DNA from: an uncultured Candidatus Saccharibacteria bacterium
Lineage (GTDB): Bacteria; Patescibacteriota; Minisyncoccia; Phycocordibacterales; PALSA-1337
DNA: 64,000 nucleotides
Direction of reading: 5' to 3'
NCBI GenBank assembly: GCA_964645315.1
Contig: CAZYBH010000001.1
Span: 32,405-96,404 of the forward strand
Positions 60,146 to 64,000 of the stretch are shown one piece after another. The translations under genes were made by a program, and so were the position numbers. The notes beneath the pieces were generated by a model. That model was not told the DNA's origin, did no database searches, and saw only the letters and a program-made list of their open reading frames with translations. Within the stretch, counting starts at the first letter, position 1; every line of letters begins with the position of its first letter.

Positions 60146-60733
60146 ATGTCATACATAATTGCAGGTCTAGGAAATCCAGGTGAGGAATATATTGATACAA
60201 GACACAATACCGGTCGGATCGTTTTGGATTATTTGGCAAAGGAACATGAAGCTCAATTCCAATTTGATAAGAAGTCTGAAGCACAAGTTGCAAGTACAAA
60301 AATCGCCAAGGAAAAAGTTATTCTTCTCAAACCAGAGACCTTTATGAATAATTCTGGTAAGTCTATTTCTTATTTTGTCAAAAATCCAAAGCAAGCCGAA
60401 AAATTGATCGTTATTTACGATGATTTTAGTCTACCTTTGGGGAAGATACGCATTTCATTCAACAGAAGCTCTGGTGGACACAATGGTGTCGAATCAATAA
60501 TCAAGGCGGTCAAGACTGAGGCTTTTGTTCGGATCAGGATTGGCACAGCAAAAGAGAATGCAAAAGGTCATGCCAAGCTCATAAATGGCGAAGATAAGAT
60601 AGAAAAATTCATTTTGGGTAAGTTCAAAGATGATGAAATAAAAGAGCTCAAAAAAGTATCCAAGATAGTCTTGGAAGCTGTAGAAGTTTTGATCAAAGAG
60701 AGCAGGGAAAAGGCTATGAGTCTATTCAATTAA
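60146..60733 (+). CDS. pth: peptidyl-tRNA hydrolase
   Basis: IAGLGNPGEEYIDTRHNTG, IVIYDDFSLPLGKIR, GGHNGVESI. Confidence 0.9.
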   Translation: MSYIIAGLGNPGEEYIDTRHNTGRIVLDYLAKEHEAQFQFDKKSEAQVASTKIAKEKVILLKPETFMNNSGKSISYFVKNPKQAEKLIVIYDDFSLPLGKIRISFNRSSGGHNGVESIIKAVKTEAFVRIRIGTAKENAKGHAKLINGEDKIEKFILGKFKDDEIKELKKVSKIVLEAVEVLIKESREKAMSLFN

Positions 60734-60772
60734 AACAAAAATCACCCGATGGGTGATTTTTGTTTTATTCTA

Positions 60773-62017
60773 TTACTTCTTCTCGCCGATGAATGTCAAT
60801 GCCATCTTTTGTTCCTTTGGATCAAATAGGGAAATCTTGAAATTGTAAACCTTACCCAATTCTAGATTCTTGCGTAGTTTCTCTTCCGAACCAAATTCTG
60901 AAACATGGACAAGTCCTGCTACACCTTCTTCGATCGAAGCTAGGGCGCCATGCTTATTGAACTTGATGATAACACCTGAGACCGTCATGTCTTTTTGATA
61001 CTTCTTGCTTGCTTCGGTCCAAGGATTGGTCTTCAATTGCTTCAATGATAGAGAAATCTTGCCGTCTTTGATCTCGATAATCTTTGCCTTGATGCTTTGA
61101 CCGACTTTGACAAAGTTTCTTGGATCATCGACTAGACCCCAATCAATTTCGGAGATATGGATAAGACCTTCCAAACCTTCTTCTAATTTTACGAAGACAC
61201 CGAAGTCTACAATGCCAGTAATAGTACCGCTTACAGTATTGCCGACCTCATACTTGCTAACGATCTTTTCTTTTTCTTTTGATTCCGAACCCTTCTCGGA
61301 GAAGATCAATTTGCCCTCCTTAGGATCGGCGGTGATAATGGAGACTTGTAGTCTTGTGCCGACGAGTTTCTTCAATTCTTCCAAAATCTTGTCTTTATCA
61401 CCATCGGAAATGCGAGGATAGTGATCGGTCTTGAGTTGGGAAGCTGGTAGGAATCCCAATATACCTTGCCATTCGATAAGAAGACCACCCTTGTTTGCTT
61501 CTTTGACTGGTAGGTCTAGGACTTTCTTTTCTTTGATAGCGATCTCAGCTTCATTCCAAATAAGAGCTTGTCTTGCTTCCTTGAGAGAAAGTTCTAGATA
61601 GCCTTCTTTGTGAGAATTGTCGACAATCTTTGCGGCGATGACATCACCAACATTGATCTTCTTTATTACATCGCGGGCGATGATAAATTCACGACCATAA
61701 ATTATACCGGTACCAAATGGTGCTAGATCGACATAGACTGATGACTTCTCAATGGCTATCACTGGACCCTCTACCAAATCTCCAATGATTGGAGGATTCT
61801 TAAGGTTGACAGATAATTTGCCCATAAAAGATGCCTTTTGAGCATCGGTAAGCTCCATTTCATCTTTTGCTACAACTTTGTCTGATTTTTTGTCAGATTT
61901 CTTGGTTGTTTTGGTCTTTTTTTCTTCTGTTTGGACCTCTTCCTTTGTCTCGCTCTTGTTTTCTGTAATTTCTTCTTGCTTTACACCAGTAAGTGTTTCT
62001 TTTAGTTTTTTGAACAT
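60773..62017 (-). CDS. rpsA: 30S ribosomal protein S1 (four S1 domains) with K/E-rich N-terminal region
   Basis: Repeated S1 OB-fold motifs (GxV.G.V..I..FG.FV.L..G..GL.H.SE.). Start trimmed to MFKKLKE. Confidence 0.8.
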   Translation of the reverse strand: MFKKLKETLTGVKQEEITENKSETKEEVQTEEKKTKTTKKSDKKSDKVVAKDEMELTDAQKASFMGKLSVNLKNPPIIGDLVEGPVIAIEKSSVYVDLAPFGTGIIYGREFIIARDVIKKINVGDVIAAKIVDNSHKEGYLELSLKEARQALIWNEAEIAIKEKKVLDLPVKEANKGGLLIEWQGILGFLPASQLKTDHYPRISDGDKDKILEELKKLVGTRLQVSIITADPKEGKLIFSEKGSESKEKEKIVSKYEVGNTVSGTITGIVDFGVFVKLEEGLEGLIHISEIDWGLVDDPRNFVKVGQSIKAKIIEIKDGKISLSLKQLKTNPWTEASKKYQKDMTVSGVIIKFNKHGALASIEEGVAGLVHVSEFGSEEKLRKNLELGKVYNFKISLFDPKEQKMALTFIGEKK

Positions 62018-62179
62018 AATATTTCTTCTTCCGCTTTTTAAACTAATAATATTAATTGCGGGGTTATGAAGATCTTTAATGGCATTTTTCAAACCTTTGC
62101 CGTATGGCGAATTTAGCATAAAAGTCTAGGGTTGTCGAGGTTGACTGTGATTTTTCGTATTGCTACAATTTATCGTGAA

Positions 62180-62229
62180 GAAGACTTCGGCCGCAGATCC
62201 AATGGACTGCAATTTGGCGGAGGTTTTTT
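62180..62229. repeat. perfect 50-bp direct repeat, copy 1 (gaagacttcggccgcagatccaatggactgcaatttggcggaggtttttt)
   Basis: Identical to 63178-63227. Contains near-palindrome gcagatccaatggactgc and a T-run. Confidence 0.9.
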
Positions 62230-62234
62230 TCTTT

Positions 62235-62639
62235 TTATTTTGGAAAAACTGATATCAAAAATTTCTGATTTTTTCTATTGGTTTTTATTTGAACAAAGAA
62301 AATATTATTATTTAATGTAGTACCGGAAAACCTATATAACTTTTCATTAGATTCTTTTGAGTGAGTATTTATATTGGGGTAGGACTTTGAGTTTCTAATT
62401 AAATCCAAGCAACATAAGTAGTATTTTAATCTTCTGGTTCTATCTTTGAATGATTTTGATCTAATGTGGTCCCAGAAATAATCAAGAAATACTTTTTCAT
62501 TATTAAAATATTTTGATCGTACATAGGGTCTTCTTTTGGATTTAGATTTAATTTTATTGTATATCATAATAGCTTTACGATACACGTCTTTATATGATGT
62601 ACCCCTTAATATTATTTCTCTTGTTACATAAGGTTCCAT
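62235..62639 (-). CDS. hypothetical basic protein (134 aa) lying between the 50-bp direct repeats
   Basis: ORF only. K/R/Y-rich with no confident family. AT-rich like the host. Confidence 0.4.
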   Translation of the reverse strand: MEPYVTREIILRGTSYKDVYRKAIMIYNKIKSKSKRRPYVRSKYFNNEKVFLDYFWDHIRSKSFKDRTRRLKYYLCCLDLIRNSKSYPNINTHSKESNEKLYRFSGTTLNNNIFFVQIKTNRKNQKFLISVFPK

Positions 62640-62981
62640 GTATTTTCAATATAACAAAGTGAGGTGAAGAAATTATGAAAATTTGATGAAGAAAGGATAA
62701 ATTTTTAAAAATAATTGGTAGGATTGTCGAGGTTGATGATCTATAAGAATTTTGTTATATTTGTATCAATATAAACTTGTGGCCATTGGTTTGCACACTA
62801 AGTTGGTCATTACGGCATTGAAGCTGTTGACAAGACTATGACAAGCTCCTTAATTGGAGCTTGTGTGCTTTTTATTGGCAGGAGATGTACCCATCTATTT
62901 CATGGGGTAAATCACATGCCCAACAAAAAATCGCAACTGTGAGGTTGCGACTGCGGGTTCGGGCTCCGCTACCGAGGAGAC

Positions 62982-63083
62982 CTACTTTCCGAAGGTCTCC
63001 CGAAGGCCGTAGGCGATGAGCGCCAGTACGGCCGCCACCACGATGGTGGCACCGACGGCCTTCGCAGAGACCGCGAAGGCCAT
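62982..63083 (-). CDS. GC-rich micro-ORF encoding a 33-aa hydrophobic peptide MAFAVSAKAVGATIVVAAVLALIAYGLRETFGK (speculative)
   Basis: Read from the reverse complement of a strongly GC-rich islet (62930-63090). Single TM-like helix. No clear SD. Not in the ORF track. Confidence 0.25.
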   Translation of the reverse strand: MAFAVSAKAVGATIVVAAVLALIAYGLRETFGK

Positions 63084-63177
63084 AAATGAAAGGATCATAC
63101 AATACTATTATACACCAAATAGTATAATTGTCAAGATGGTGATGGTGATTACTCATTTTGCTAAAATTTATAATAAT

Positions 63178-63227
63178 GAAGACTTCGGCCGCAGATCCAA
63201 TGGACTGCAATTTGGCGGAGGTTTTTT
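63178..63227. repeat. perfect 50-bp direct repeat, copy 2
   Basis: See 62180-62229. Confidence 0.9.
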
Positions 63228-63252
63228 ATATTAATTATGATAAAATTCGAGC

Positions 63253-63453
63253 ATGACAATAAAGAATCAATTTACTGCCGTATATAAGAAAACCAAGGAA
63301 TGGTTTGTTGCTTGGGTAGAAGAGATTCCAGGGATTAATACTCAAGGCAAAACTATAACTGAGGCTAGAGAAAATCTCAAAAAAGCAATTTTTTTGATTT
63401 TGGAAACAAATCGCAAATCTGCTCGCAAAAATGTTCGATCATTCAGAGGTTGA
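63253..63453 (+). CDS. hicB: HicB-family antitoxin (UPF0150), apparently orphan
   Basis: FTAVYKKTKEWFVAWVEEIPGINTQGKTITEARENLKKAI matches the HicB N-terminal RNase-H-like domain. No hicA ORF recognised nearby. Confidence 0.6.
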   Translation: MTIKNQFTAVYKKTKEWFVAWVEEIPGINTQGKTITEARENLKKAIFLILETNRKSARKNVRSFRG

Positions 63454-63606
63454 TGATTATTTAGCAAAAAAGATTTGTAAAGATCTAGGTGTACCGAAAT
63501 ATTGAAACATTGAGGTTGAACCATAGTGTTCAATCACCATTTTGCTTACCTTGATAAACAGAAACCCCACCGCCGGCGAACCGGGGGTGGGGTGCGAAAT
63601 CATGTG

Positions 63607-64000
63607 CTAGCTAGCTTGCTTTGCTCGGGCGAGGCGAAAGGCCACCTCCATGGAATGTTGGTGACTGAGGATTGGATTGAACCCGACGCACGCCTCAAGA
63701 TATTGAGACATTTTCCTCTTGGCAACCTTTCTCTGCCAGATTGCCATTCTGGCTGTTTTTTTGCTGTTCGTTGTTAAAGAGCCAACGGTTTTACCTTTAG
63801 ATATCAGTTTCGAAAACTGACCCACGGTCCCAACAAGGTCTTCGCAGACGAGAATCATTCTCGCCTCACGAACAGCCGGTCCGACGATTTTTTTGACGTC
63901 GACAGCTATATGGTCTCGAACAGACAGCAGCTCTATTGTCCCAGCATTCCAGACTACTTGGAACGCTGAAACAACCTTGATCAGAGTGCGTGTGTTGAAC
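63607..64000 (-). CDS. 3' part of a GC-rich ORF that continues beyond the window end (unknown function)
   Basis: Open frame continues upstream of the ORF-track Met to the window edge (..VRDHIAVDVKKIVGPAVREARMILVCEDLVG..). A GC hairpin plus T-run terminator lies downstream at ~63565-63600 (minus strand). Confidence 0.35.
   Translation of the reverse strand, partial: FNTRTLIKVVSAFQVVWNAGTIELLSVRDHIAVDVKKIVGPAVREARMILVCEDLVGTVGQFSKLISKGKTVGSLTTNSKKTARMAIWQRKVAKRKMSQYLEACVGFNPILSHQHSMEVAFRLARAKQAS

What the first reader, a model, noticed from the sequence alone, without database searches (positions are those of the whole stretch)
62148..63240. Perfect 50-bp direct repeats bracketing an unknown ORF and a GC-rich micro-ORF, next to an orphan HicB
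The sequence gaagacttcggccgcagatccaatggactgcaatttggcggaggtttttt occurs identically at 62180-62229 and 63178-63227. Each copy is preceded by a related leader (gggttgtcgaggttga... at 62148 and ggattgtcgaggttga... at 62722). It contains a near-palindrome (gcagatccaatggactgc) and ends in a T-run, so it may be a terminator or a recombination site. Between the copies lie an uncharacterised 134-aa basic protein gene (62235..62639, minus) and a GC-rich segment whose reverse strand encodes a 33-aa single-helix hydrophobic peptide. Just beyond the second copy is a hicB antitoxin with no hicA. The arrangement (repeat-bounded module with small toxin-like or membrane-peptide candidates beside an orphan antitoxin) resembles a decayed or novel toxin-antitoxin or abortive-infection cassette.
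Basis: partly seen in the sequence, partly recalled or inferred. Interest (0 to 1): 0.6.

Follow-up and report, generated by a model that had tools for sequence, protein, structure and literature searches.

The report
Duplicated small-RNA gene partnering toxin-like RNase
The 50-bp repeat is two copies of a roughly 55-nt hairpin small-RNA gene with its own promoter, and this RNA is the constant, convergently transcribed companion of an undescribed RelE/PBECR-like RNase gene found across CPR/Patescibacteria, so it looks like a new RNA-protein toxin-antitoxin-type module rather than the ends of a mobile cassette.

Summary
The two perfect 50-mers are real (62180-62229 and 63178-63227) and are the only copies in the window. 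Each is a small transcription unit: a sigma-70-type promoter, an extended hairpin and a U-tract.

Copy 1 is not a cassette boundary. It sits 5 nt beyond the stop codon of the 134-aa gene, on the opposite strand. This gene-plus-RNA pair is conserved in about 300 Patescibacteria species. In 80 loci fetched through the protein, 75 have the RNA by covariance model. The other five have a divergent hairpin at the same spot.

The RNA structure shows compensatory changes. It is much more stable on the RNA strand than on the mRNA strand. It nearly always has a near-consensus promoter ending 6-8 nt upstream.

The protein has no Pfam, NCBIfam or PADLOC match. It folds confidently into a RelE/BECR-like RNase fold, closest to phage polyvalent-protein (PBECR) domains.

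The gene is essentially never found without the RNA, but about 30% of RNA copies lack the gene. That asymmetry is what a toxin and its antitoxin would show.

Copy 2 is an orphan RNA copy upstream of a decayed hicBA operon, in which hicA is deleted except for its 3' end. The interval also holds a second sRNA, which partners a 125-aa paralogue in sister strains, and a foreign GC-rich 38-aa peptide unit.

Function is inferred, not shown.

The parts
62127..62144 (.). 'Box' TAGGGTTGTCGAGGTTGA: back-to-back divergent promoter core. On the minus strand TCGACA is the -35 of rpsA. On the plus strand TTGACT is the -35 of the hairpin sRNA.
   Evidence: It is conserved 100% in relatives L012-L016 and L097-L103 next to rpsA.
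62141..62169 (+). Promoter of sRNA copy 1 (TTGACT-17-TACAAT, with TG upstream of the -10).
   Evidence: The -35 and -10 keep their positions in relatives while the spacer diverges. Across 80 copies, 71 score at least 9/12, against 13 in shuffles.
62176..62230 (+). Hairpin sRNA, copy 1. It runs from about the transcription start to the U-tract, is convergent with the 134-aa gene, and ends 5 nt from that gene's stop codon.
   Evidence: Covariance model R1 scores 46.6 bits, E = 4e-8. Fold. It is 93-100% conserved in relatives whose protein is only 61-63% identical.
62235..62639 (-). 134-aa basic protein: solo RelE/BECR (PBECR-like) fold, a putative endoRNase and toxin candidate.
62640..62722 (-). 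Upstream region of the 134-aa gene. A -10-like TATATT ends 8 nt before the ATG, so the mRNA is probably leaderless. It also contains repeated TTTATC/TTCATC motifs.
   Evidence: It is 83% identical to the region upstream of the 125-aa paralogue in L097. Test for leaderless mRNAs.
62719..62761 (+). Second box (TAGGATTGTCGAGGTTGA) followed by the promoter TTGATG-17-TATATT of sRNA2.
62768..62873 (+). sRNA2: a structured RNA of about 105 nt ending in the terminator at 62841-62864. In sister strains it is the convergent partner of a 125-aa paralogue of the 134-aa gene.
   Evidence: Fold is -39.8 kcal/mol, z = -4.1. Terminator. It is 97% identical in L097-L100, where rpsA is only 89-95% identical, and 79% in L101-L103. 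L001 and L004 show the 125-aa gene ending inside its terminator.
62925..63134 (-). GC-rich unit: a perfect promoter TTGACA-16-TATAAT (63134-63107), a probably leaderless 38-aa single-helix peptide ORF (62982..63098), and a terminator (62952-62929).
   Evidence: z = -5.6. GC is 0.62 and GC3 is 0.85. It is found only in this strain. No matches elsewhere. No complementarity to neighbouring sRNAs.
63135..63173 (+). Diverged promoter-like leader of copy 2, with an extended -10 (TGCTAAAAT) and a weak -35.
   Evidence: 70% identical to the copy-1 leader.
63174..63227 (+). Hairpin sRNA, copy 2. It is an orphan: no family gene converges on it. It lies 25 nt upstream of hicB.
   Evidence: R1 scores 40.7 bits, E = 8e-7. 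Its flanks are confirmed in L006 and L007.
63253..63453 (+). hicB-like antitoxin gene, truncated at the C-terminus (66 aa against 78 aa in relative L012). It has its own -10 (TGATAAAAT) 6 nt before the ATG.
   Evidence: PF21748 UPF0150 scores 26.7 bits against a cut-off of 27.3. Alignment to the L012 hicBA.
63446..63505 (+). 3' remnant of hicA (…EVDDYLAKKICKDLGVPKY*), out of frame with hicB.
   Evidence: The L012 HicA ends …EIDDFLAKKICKDLGVPKR*.
63562..63594 (-). Conserved GC-rich terminator hairpin of the next gene (homologue of the 202/226-aa gene, 63607 to beyond 64000). It marks the right edge of the variable spot.
   Evidence: It is 100% identical in L009-L011.

Best explanation
**What the repeat is.** The repeated 50-mer is the transcribed body of a small RNA gene. 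A sigma-70-type promoter fires about 7 nt upstream of an extended hairpin and stops at the hairpin's U-tract, giving an RNA of about 55 nt. The hairpin has a 9-bp basal stem, a G·G mismatch, a 3-bp middle stem, a 5-bp apical stem and a 3' bulge of about 5 nt.

**What it goes with.** The RNA belongs to a two-part module found throughout CPR/Patescibacteria. The module is a solo RelE/PBECR-like RNase gene of about 135 aa, with the RNA gene placed tail-to-tail against its stop codon. The same DNA hairpin therefore also ends the RNase mRNA.

**Proposed mechanism (inferred).** I propose that the protein is a toxin-like endoRNase and the hairpin RNA is its antidote or regulator. Two routes are possible:
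- The RNA binds the protein directly, as in type III toxin-antitoxin systems. The conserved non-helical nucleotides and the survival of promoter-bearing orphan copies favour this route.
- The RNA pairs with the fully complementary 3' end of the RNase mRNA and exposes it to decay, as in the type I systems of Bacillus and Enterococcus.

**How this window came about.** Copy 1 is the ancestral, gene-linked RNA. Copy 2 is an orphan copy lying in front of a decayed hicBA operon. The interval between them is a hot spot where such modules are swapped or stacked:
- [134 aa + sRNA1] alone in some strains;
- [125-aa paralogue + sRNA2] alone in others;
- both together in a third group of strains;
- in this strain, the paralogue replaced by a foreign GC-rich peptide unit.

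**Shown:** sequence anatomy, conservation, covariation, promoter placement, protein fold and distribution. **Inferred:** transcription, RNase activity, toxicity and neutralisation.
For: **1. It is an autonomous transcription unit.**
- In 80 RNA copies, 71 have at least a 9/12 match to TTGACA-16/17-TATAAT, against 13 in shuffles. 54 reach at least 10/12, against 0 in shuffles.
- TTGACA is exact in 51 copies, and the -10 ends 6-8 nt before the RNA's 5' end.
- Orphan copies keep their promoters, 15 of 22 scoring at least 9/12.

**2. It is a structured RNA on the + strand.**
- 86% of cells are paired, and 15 of 17 pairs show compensatory changes.
- 0 of 500 shuffles reach the observed values, and controls with the pairing partners slid are far lower.
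- Mean MFE is -21.6 kcal/mol on the RNA strand against -14.6 on the mRNA strand. The RNA strand is more stable in 77 of 80 loci, with 2.6 G-U pairs against 0.8.
- A compensatory insertion occurs in L012 (CUUC/GGAGG becomes CUUUC/GGAGGG).

**3. It is tightly linked to one gene family.**
- In 80 GTDB loci fetched through the protein, 75 have the RNA at E <= 1e-3 and the other 5 have a divergent hairpin in the same place.
- The median distance from stop codon to hairpin is 3 nt.
- Paralogous gene copies each carry their own RNA (L032, L057).

**4. The dependence is asymmetric.** Of 81 RNA copies fetched through the RNA pattern, 53 have the gene, 4 lie at contig ends and 24 are orphans.

**5. No protein partner is conserved.** Neighbouring genes are unrelated (117 of 139 are singletons), and no small ORF recurs.

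**7. The RNA is more conserved than the coding DNA around it.** It is 93-100% identical where the protein is 61-63% identical. The two window copies are identical while their leaders are 70% identical.

**8. The module behaves like a toxin-antitoxin module.** Its context varies, genomes can carry several copies, and orphans lie among hicBA, HepT, MqsA-like and BrnA-like genes.
Against: - There are no expression data. The RNA, its ends and its abundance are inferred from sequence alone.
- The hairpin is also a plausible plain terminator for the RNase gene, with an A-tract on one side and a U-tract on the other. Part of its conservation could serve that role.
- No cognate-specific complementarity exists between the RNA and the 5' end of the RNase mRNA, which excludes one classic type I mode.
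- Orphan copies upstream of hicBA operons and at the 3' ends of unrelated genes suggest the element may have a more general role than antidote to one protein.
- In two loci (L081, L089) a HicB-like gene sits operon-like in front of the RNase gene, so a protein antitoxin may exist in some lineages.
- The family's wide, mostly single-copy distribution could also fit a housekeeping ribonucleoprotein.
Confidence: 0.5

Rival explanations
1. The element is a plain bidirectional intrinsic terminator. It merely ends the 134-aa gene and insulates its neighbours. The short RNA, if made at all, is a by-product with no function of its own.
For: The hairpin plus U-tract is the classic terminator form. An A-tract on the other side lets it act on both strands, and it starts a median of 3 nt after the stop codon. 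Several orphan copies also sit at the 3' ends of other genes.
Against: Terminators are not normally 93-100% conserved where the adjacent protein is 61% identical. They also do not keep specific unpaired nucleotides across phyla. A near-consensus promoter aimed into the hairpin from 6-8 nt away is present in about 90% of copies. The structure is selected on the strand opposite to the gene. There are only two copies in 64 kb, whereas other terminators in the window are unrelated.
Confidence: 0.15
2. The promoter-hairpin unit is a general regulatory or insulating device of toxin-antitoxin islands. It could be a leader or attenuator, a decoy RNA, or a convergent-transcription brake. It would serve several RNase toxins, including HicA, and is not specific to the 134-aa family.
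For: The layout sRNA then hicB then hicA recurs in the window, in L168/L121 and in L172. These loci carry unrelated HicB sequences. Seven of 10 HicB-like ORFs in 857 kb lie within 150 nt of a module part. Other orphans converge on HepT, MqsA-like and BrnA-like genes.
Against: About 69% of RNA copies, and essentially all family genes, are paired with each other. hicBA occurs without the RNA in L012. The window's hicB has its own -10 after a strong terminator.
Confidence: 0.2
3. The two 50-mers are attL/attR-like ends of a roughly 1-kb mobile or excisable cassette. Alternatively, they are substrates of recurrent deletion or amplification.
For: They are perfect 50-bp direct repeats 998 bp apart. 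Contig L002 (ERZ3756520) is 1053 bp, which equals 998 + 55. It is a circular permutation joining 63177 to 62230 through one repeat copy. The region is polymorphic between strains.
Against: Relatives without the inserted DNA still carry copy 1 and the 134-aa gene. The indel boundaries (about 62712 and 63562, or 62873 in L001/L004) are not at the repeats. No recombinase is present in the interval. The repeat is an ancient element present in hundreds of species as a single copy. L002 has 1.5x coverage, so the cycle may be an assembly-graph artefact.
Confidence: 0.05
4. The protein and the RNA form a housekeeping ribonucleoprotein of CPR bacteria, for example an RNA-processing factor with a dedicated RNA subunit or substrate. 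It would not be a conflict system.
For: The module is widely distributed across Patescibacteria phyla. There is usually one module per locus, the promoter is strong, and both partners are conserved.
Against: Its genomic position is not conserved. Strains of one species swap it for a 31%-identical paralogue with a different RNA. Orphans, tandem copies and toxin-antitoxin neighbours are common. The closest folds are toxins.
Confidence: 0.1

Closest known systems
Type I toxin-antitoxin systems with convergent, 3'-overlapping RNAs: par/Fst RNA I-RNA II of pAD1, and txpA/RatA and bsrG/SR4 of Bacillus subtilis (own knowledge; background in PMC7430163 and PMC7472228, listed)
   Same: The toxin gene and a small RNA gene are tail-to-tail. 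They share a bidirectional terminator, so the RNA is fully complementary to the 3' end of the toxin mRNA. The RNA has its own strong promoter. The modules are small, scattered and sometimes decayed.
   Different: Here the 'toxin' is a 134-aa soluble RNase-fold protein, not a membrane peptide of under 60 aa. The overlap is only the terminator hairpin. The RNA is conserved in sequence across phyla, which pure cis-antisense action would not require. No 5' complementarity was found.
Type III toxin-antitoxin systems: ToxIN, CptIN and TenpIN (own knowledge)
   Same: An endoRNase protein is paired with a small structured RNA and no protein antitoxin. Orphan or extra RNA copies would add antidote in trans.
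   Different: Type III antitoxins are tandem repeat arrays upstream of the toxin on the same strand, separated from it by a terminator and processed by the toxin. Here there is a single hairpin, convergent with the gene. The toxin fold is RelE/BECR-like rather than ToxN-like.
PBECR domains (phage Barnase-EndoU-ColicinE5/D-RelE-like RNases) of phage polyvalent proteins and MuF C-termini (Iyer et al. 2017, PMC5512222)
   Same: These are the best structural matches over the whole 134 aa. The conserved His in the core's first helix and Ser in the last strand match the described active-site arrangement. Solo versions exist.
   Different: No sequence-model match was found to Pfam families. This family is chromosomal in CPR bacteria, not in virion or polyvalent contexts, and has a dedicated convergent RNA gene, which is not described for PBECR.
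RelE/ParE-superfamily type II toxins: RelE, YoeB, HigB and BrnT
   Different: No adjacent protein antitoxin is conserved. There is an extra N-terminal helix plus a beta-hairpin. Sequence-based membership is not met.
HicAB type II toxin-antitoxin system
   Same: The window's 66-aa ORF is homologous to the HicB of an intact hicB-hicA pair in relative L012.
   Different: Here hicA is deleted except for its last ~20 codons, and hicB is truncated. This locus is a separate, decayed system lying next to the orphan RNA copy.

Membership tests
Intrinsic (rho-independent) terminator | G+C-rich stem-loop immediately followed by a U-tract at the end of a transcription unit. | tested here: met
   Both copies fold at -21.4 kcal/mol and carry 6-7 U. 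On the other strand an A-tract precedes the hairpin, and in most relatives a U-run follows it.
   There are two copies in 64 kb by pattern and by covariance model. In 465 kb of relatives' loci, essentially all copies are next to the family gene. The whole genome was not available.
Independent small RNA gene | Its own promoter at a fixed distance, its own terminator, and a conserved structure with covariation. | tested here: met
   Promoter statistics, covariation, strand asymmetry. Transcription itself was not observed.
Rfam families (any) | A score at or above the gathering threshold of a curated covariance model. | tested here: not met
   No hit at the element in the window, even at E <= 10. 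No hit in four typical members at E <= 1.
Type I toxin-antitoxin system | The toxin is a small hydrophobic peptide. | tested here: not met
   The linked gene encodes a 134-aa basic, soluble-looking alpha/beta protein. The nearby 38-aa peptide is hydrophobic but has no complementary RNA.
Type I toxin-antitoxin system | An antisense RNA base-pairs with the toxin mRNA. | tested here: inconclusive
   By geometry the RNA is fully complementary to the mRNA's 3' hairpin, with the stop codon 5 nt from the hairpin. No 5' complementarity was found. Transcript ends are unknown.
Type III toxin-antitoxin system | The RNA antitoxin is a tandem-repeat array upstream of the toxin gene on the same strand. | tested here: not met
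   It is a single hairpin on the opposite strand, downstream of the gene. Tandem RNA copies occur only rarely (L035, L078).
Type III toxin-antitoxin system | The RNA binds and inhibits the endoRNase toxin. | not testable with these tools
   This needs binding, cleavage and toxicity assays, or protein-RNA co-folding.
RelE/ParE superfamily and BECR fold (including PBECR) | A core of helix or helices packed on a four-stranded antiparallel sheet. | tested here: met
RelE/ParE superfamily and BECR fold (including PBECR) | A match to the family's sequence models. | tested here: not met
   No Pfam, NCBIfam, PHROG or PADLOC hit at E <= 1, and no PDB sequence hit at E <= 10.
PBECR | Catalytic His in the first core helix and Ser/Thr near the C-terminus. 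| tested here: inconclusive
   H58 and S130 are at least 90% conserved and lie in the expected elements. The description comes from PMC5512222. No residue-level superposition was done.
HicAB | A HicB-type antitoxin domain. | tested here: inconclusive
   UPF0150 scores 26.7 bits against a cut-off of 27.3. The ORF is clearly homologous to the HicB of the L012 hicBA pair.
HicAB | An adjacent intact hicA toxin gene. | tested here: not met
   Only the 3' ~60 nt of hicA remain, out of frame.
Integrative or mobile cassette bounded by att-like direct repeats | A recombinase, and empty sites in relatives that break precisely at the repeats. | tested here: not met
   No recombinase lies in 62148-64000. 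Relatives lacking the insert retain copy 1 and the 134-aa gene, and the breakpoints lie elsewhere.
Integrative or mobile cassette bounded by att-like direct repeats | A circular or deletion junction across one repeat. | tested here: inconclusive
   L002 is a 998+55-bp circular path, but at 1.5x coverage.

The most novel reading that the evidence does not exclude
A CPR/Patescibacteria-wide class of RNA-protein toxin-antitoxin (or ribonucleoprotein) module that has not been described. In it, a solo BECR/PBECR-fold RNase is held in check by a ~55-nt hairpin RNA transcribed convergently from a consensus promoter. The same hairpin doubles as the RNase gene's terminator. Orphan RNA copies act in trans, including in front of hicBA operons. 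Alternative RNase+RNA cassettes are exchanged at a conserved promoter box next to rpsA.
Probability: 0.35. Interest if true: 0.8.

Novelty: new variant of a known kind. Interest (0 to 1): 0.65.

Why it matters
CPR/Patescibacteria make up a large share of bacterial diversity. They have tiny genomes and almost no characterised regulatory RNAs.

This work defines two new families:
- An RNA family absent from Rfam, with covariation support, a consensus promoter and hundreds of members.
- A protein family absent from Pfam and NCBIfam, with a confident RNase-toxin-like fold.

The two are physically coupled, and the dependence is asymmetric in the way toxin-antitoxin pairs are.

If the RNA neutralises the RNase, this would be a toxin-antitoxin architecture that fits neither type I nor type III. 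It would extend RelE/BECR toxins to RNA antidotes. It would also give a tractable two-part system, testable in E. coli, from organisms that cannot be cultured alone.

The finding also explains why assemblies of this region fragment, and it shows a strain-level hot spot where such modules are swapped.

Tried and rejected
**Searches that found nothing**
- Rfam on the whole window, on the region at E <= 10, and on four typical members found nothing at the element.
- An exact 41-mer of the window's RNA in GTDB genomes gave 0 hits.
- Pfam, PHROGs, NCBIfam, PADLOC and a PDB-sequence profile gave nothing for the 134-aa protein.
- The afdb50 fold library was unavailable.
- Literature searches found no description of the module: Patescibacteria with sRNA and toxin-antitoxin, CPR structured RNA, PBECR, BECR with type III, and Saccharibacteria sRNA. 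One 2026 BECR preprint could not be opened.

**GC-rich unit**
- The type I reading was tested and not supported. Duplex energies of sRNA2 or the hairpin RNA against its mRNA are no better than shuffles, with z between -0.6 and +0.3.
- It has no match in viral contigs, plasmids or phages, and a back-translated peptide pattern finds nothing in JGI metagenomes.
- The peptide is too short for the protein search.

**Tests on the hairpin RNA and its neighbours**
- A trans-acting, par-like model is not supported. Cognate sRNA-to-5'-mRNA pairs are no better than non-cognate ones, with a median rank of 40.5 of 74.
- A conserved protein partner was not found, either large or small.
- The idea that L012 keeps a deleted remnant of copy 2 upstream of hicB was rejected. 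The 'remnant' sequence is also present in L014, which lacks hicBA.

**125-aa paralogue**
- Its structure prediction was too poor to use (pLDDT 48).
- Profile-profile similarity to the 134-aa family is weak: E = 0.0014, probability 17%, though the conserved motif aligns.
Full report
**1. The observation**

The 50-mer GAAGACTTCGGCCGCAGATCCAATGGACTGCAATTTGGCGGAGGTTTTTT occurs at 62180-62229 and 63178-63227 on the + strand. It occurs nowhere else in the 64 kb at up to three mismatches, and none are expected by chance. It folds into one long hairpin followed by a U-run (-21.4 kcal/mol, z = -4.2).

Similarity between the copies continues upstream to 93 nt (86% identity). The distribution is very uneven. 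There are 13 mismatches in the 43 upstream bases and none in the 50-mer, which under uniform 30% divergence has P of about 2e-8.

The second instance does not precede copy 2. It heads a different small RNA.

The layout is reproduced in independent metagenome assemblies (L003, L005, L006, L007).

**2. Anatomy of the interval**

Four small promoter-to-terminator units and one protein gene fill 62127-63250:
- (a) A + strand promoter TTGACT-17-TACAAT (62141-62169) leads to hairpin RNA copy 1.
- (b) The 134-aa ORF lies on the minus strand (62235..62639). Its stop codon is 5 nt from the hairpin.
- (c) A + strand promoter TTGATG-17-TATATT (62733-62761) leads to a structured 'sRNA2' of about 105 nt, then to the terminator at 62841-62864.
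- (d) A perfect minus-strand promoter TTGACA-16-TATAAT (63134-63107) leads to a 62%-GC, strongly structured RNA (z = -5.6) carrying a 38-aa single-helix ORF, then to the terminator at 62952-62929.
- (e) A diverged promoter (TGCTAAAAT) leads to hairpin RNA copy 2.

The 'box' is the core of back-to-back promoters. On the minus strand, TCGACA is the -35 for rpsA (box 1) or lies upstream of the 134-aa gene (box 2). On the plus strand, TTGAC/TTGAT is the -35 of the small RNA.

**3. Copy 1 and the 134-aa gene are an old, conserved pair, not cargo**

The protein has 33 close homologues (44-97% identity) with no Pfam domain. In relatives it lies in the same place, directly upstream of rpsA (L009-L016).

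The hairpin between it and rpsA is 93-100% identical in those relatives, even where the protein is only 61-63% identical. The + strand -35 and -10 keep their positions while the spacer diverges. An inserted U in the 5' arm is matched by an inserted G in the 3' arm.

The closest relatives (L009-L011, 97% protein identity) lack everything between about 62712 and 63562. They have no sRNA2, no GC unit, no copy 2 and no hicB. The repeats therefore do not delimit the variable DNA.

**4. The module is widespread in CPR/Patescibacteria**

A scan of GTDB species representatives with the family alignment gave 301 confirmed loci. They come from Parcubacteria, Peregrinibacteria, Moranbacteria, Magasanikbacteria, Doudnabacteria, Gracilibacteria, Uhrbacteria and others. 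An HMM search of 1.8 billion cluster representatives found 299 clusters.

In the 80 loci fetched, the stop codon is followed, at a median of 3 nt, by an A-run, the hairpin and a T-run.

On the opposite strand a promoter points into the hairpin:
- 71 of 80 copies match TTGACA-16/17-TATAAT at 9/12 or better, against 13 of 80 shuffles.
- 54 of 80 reach 10/12 or better, against 0 shuffles.
- TTGACA is exact in 51 copies.
- The -10 ends 6-8 nt before the RNA's first base.

The RNA alignment (70 sequences) supports a 9-bp basal stem, a G·G mismatch, a 3-bp stem, a 5-bp apical stem and a 3' bulge. 86% of cells are paired and 15 of 17 pairs show compensatory changes. 0 of 500 shuffles reach the observed values, and the slid controls are much lower.

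The fold is much more stable on the RNA strand than on the gene's strand. Mean MFE is -21.6 against -14.6 kcal/mol, and the RNA strand wins in 77 of 80 loci because of G-U pairs.

A covariance model finds the RNA in 75 of the 80 loci at E <= 1e-3. The other five have a divergent hairpin of the same architecture. In the window it finds only the two copies. Rfam has no matching family.

**5. The protein**

AlphaFold2 gives a confident model (pLDDT 93.6).
- Foldseek against viral models finds domains of phage 'large polyvalent proteins' and MuF C-termini over the whole length (probability 1.0, TM 0.50-0.56).
- These are the contexts in which PBECR RNase domains were defined. That paper describes a His in the first core helix and a C-terminal Ser/Thr (PMC5512222).
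- In this family H58 (helix 53-59) and S130 (last strand) are at least 90% conserved, alongside the invariant R36, S42, K49 and R69/R70.

No sequence model matches. I therefore file it as BECR/PBECR-like by fold, not as a member by sequence.

**6. Behaviour of the module**

Its neighbours are unrelated from genome to genome (117 of 139 neighbouring proteins are singletons), and no small ORF recurs. The RNA is thus the only constant partner.

Some genomes have two modules, each gene with its own RNA (L032, L057). Others have extra RNA copies (L078 has three, L035 a tandem pair).

Starting from the RNA instead, a pattern for the commonest variant found 107 loci in JGI metagenomes. Of the 81 copies in the 80 loci retrieved, 53 have the convergent gene, 4 lie at contig ends and 24 lack the gene.

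Orphans mostly keep their promoter. They lie by toxin-antitoxin-type genes: hicBA, HepT, MqsA-like and BrnA-like.

The gene almost never occurs without the RNA, whereas the RNA fairly often occurs without the gene. This is the dependence expected if the protein is harmful without the RNA.

**7. How it most likely works**

*Shown:* a conserved, structured, promoter-driven hairpin unit coupled tail-to-tail to a RelE/PBECR-fold gene.

*Inferred:* the protein is an endoRNase toxin and the RNA its antidote or regulator. Two mechanisms are open.

- **Direct protein binding (type III-like).** Three observations favour it. Unpaired and mismatched nucleotides are conserved across phyla. Orphan copies persist with promoters. 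The window's orphan copy is identical to the gene-linked one.
- **Pairing with the complementary 3' hairpin of the RNase mRNA, followed by decay (type I-like, as in Bacillus and Enterococcus systems).** This follows automatically from the geometry.

A par-like interaction with the 5' end is not supported. About half of the genes look leaderless and lack a Shine-Dalgarno motif, which leaves little room for control at the ribosome-binding site.

I put about 0.85 on 'independent structured sRNA gene coupled to this gene family'. I put about 0.5 on the antidote/regulator function.

**8. What else is between and beside the copies**

*sRNA2.* It is the conserved convergent partner of a 125-aa paralogue. 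The paralogue is 31% identical to the 134-aa protein over the motif region, and the profile-profile match is weak.
- In L097-L103 the pair [125 aa + sRNA2] occupies the same site next to rpsA, with the same box.
- In L001 and L004 both modules stand in tandem.
- In the window the 125-aa gene is replaced, from 62873 onward, by the GC-rich unit.
- sRNA2 is 97% identical where rpsA is 89-95% identical.

*The GC unit.* Its composition is coding-like and typical of a high-GC donor (GC3 0.85, GC1 0.67, GC2 0.48). It has no homologue in anything searched and no antisense partner. It remains unexplained.

*hicB.* It is the remnant of a hicB-hicA operon that is intact in L012. A deletion of about 195 nt removed the end of hicB and most of hicA. 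The cassette is itself present or absent between strains carrying the identical 134-aa protein (L012 against L014).

**9. Recombination between the copies**

Contig L002 is 1053 bp, which equals 998 + 55. It is a circular permutation joining copy 2's upstream flank to copy 1's downstream flank. This could reflect a circle, a tandem amplification, or a graph artefact at 1.5x coverage. I cannot tell which. It does not change the conclusion that the repeats are not cassette ends.

**10. Comparison and novelty**

The module works most like a toxin-antitoxin pair with an RNA antidote.
- It fails the defining features of type I, because the toxin is not a small hydrophobic peptide.
- It fails those of type III, because there is no same-strand repeat array.
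- It lacks the protein antitoxin of type II RelE systems.

Neither the RNA nor the protein is in the curated libraries searched. Literature searches found no description, though the searchable library is incomplete.

I rate it a new variant of a known kind.

Noticed in passing
window 62768-62873 (+); L001 340-545; L097 989-1144; L101 4353-4505: A second conserved small RNA (sRNA2, about 105 nt, with its own promoter and terminator). In sister strains it is the convergent partner of a 125-aa distant paralogue of the 134-aa gene. In this window it has lost that gene.
   Followed up: partly
window 62925-63134 (-): A GC-rich (62%) unit with a perfect consensus promoter. It carries a leaderless-looking 38-aa single-helix peptide ORF with GC3 of 0.85, and its own terminator. 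It is found only in this strain, in the place where sister strains carry the 125-aa gene. It has no homologue and no antisense partner.
   Followed up: partly
L168 714-1399 (-); L121; L172 238-733 (-); window 63174-63505: The layout 'hairpin sRNA, then hicB, then hicA' recurs in unrelated metagenome loci with different HicB sequences. Seven of 10 HicB-like ORFs in 857 kb of fetched loci lie within 150 nt of a module part. In L081 and L089 a HicB-like ORF ends 0-6 nt before the RNase-family gene.
   Followed up: partly
window 62127-62144, 62719-62736, 63126-63143: A conserved box GGRTTGTCGAGGTTGA forms back-to-back promoters: rpsA or the module gene on one strand, a small RNA on the other. It is duplicated with each stacked module and may be the homology at which modules are exchanged.
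   Followed up: partly
window 62650-62715 (-); upstream regions in L017, L023, L025, L031, L046: Three to five direct repeats of TTTATC(A), spaced about 10-11 nt apart, lie upstream of the RNase-family gene in the window's clade. They look like an operator or iteron array.
   Followed up: no
L018, L034, L058, L060, L061, L079 and others (near the sRNA -35 or inside the gene's promoter): DnaA-box-like TTATCCAC is about three times enriched around modules (16 of 80 loci; 0.29 per kb against 0.10 per kb in the flanks).
   Followed up: partly
L002 (ERZ3756520, 1053 bp) against window 62230-63227: A contig that is a circular permutation of the 998-bp repeat unit, with a 55-nt terminal overlap. It could be a circle, a tandem amplification or a low-coverage assembly artefact.
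   Followed up: partly
window 60731-60767; L012 8100-8504; L016 2910-3314; L101 6078-6485: Relatives carry a PemK-family toxin gene between rpsA and pth. The window has none there, only a perfect 17-nt inverted repeat in the 40-nt gap. This is another variable toxin-antitoxin spot flanking rpsA.
   Followed up: no
window 63562-63594 (-) and 63607-64000 (-): A GC-rich terminator hairpin is 100% conserved in close relatives. It lies behind a gene (homologue of the 202/226-aa protein) that has no Pfam domain and is about 51% GC, well above the genome average.
   Followed up: no
L148 around 2069-2094; L172 620-1675: One orphan RNA copy converges on a RAYT/IS200-like transposase gene. Another lies next to a tyrosine recombinase gene. 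This hints that some copies sit in mobile DNA.
   Followed up: no
window 62017-62119 (-): The mechanical rpsA ORF starts at 62119. The conserved promoter, leader and start codon in relatives place the true start at the ATG at 62017 (MFKKLKE…).
   Followed up: partly
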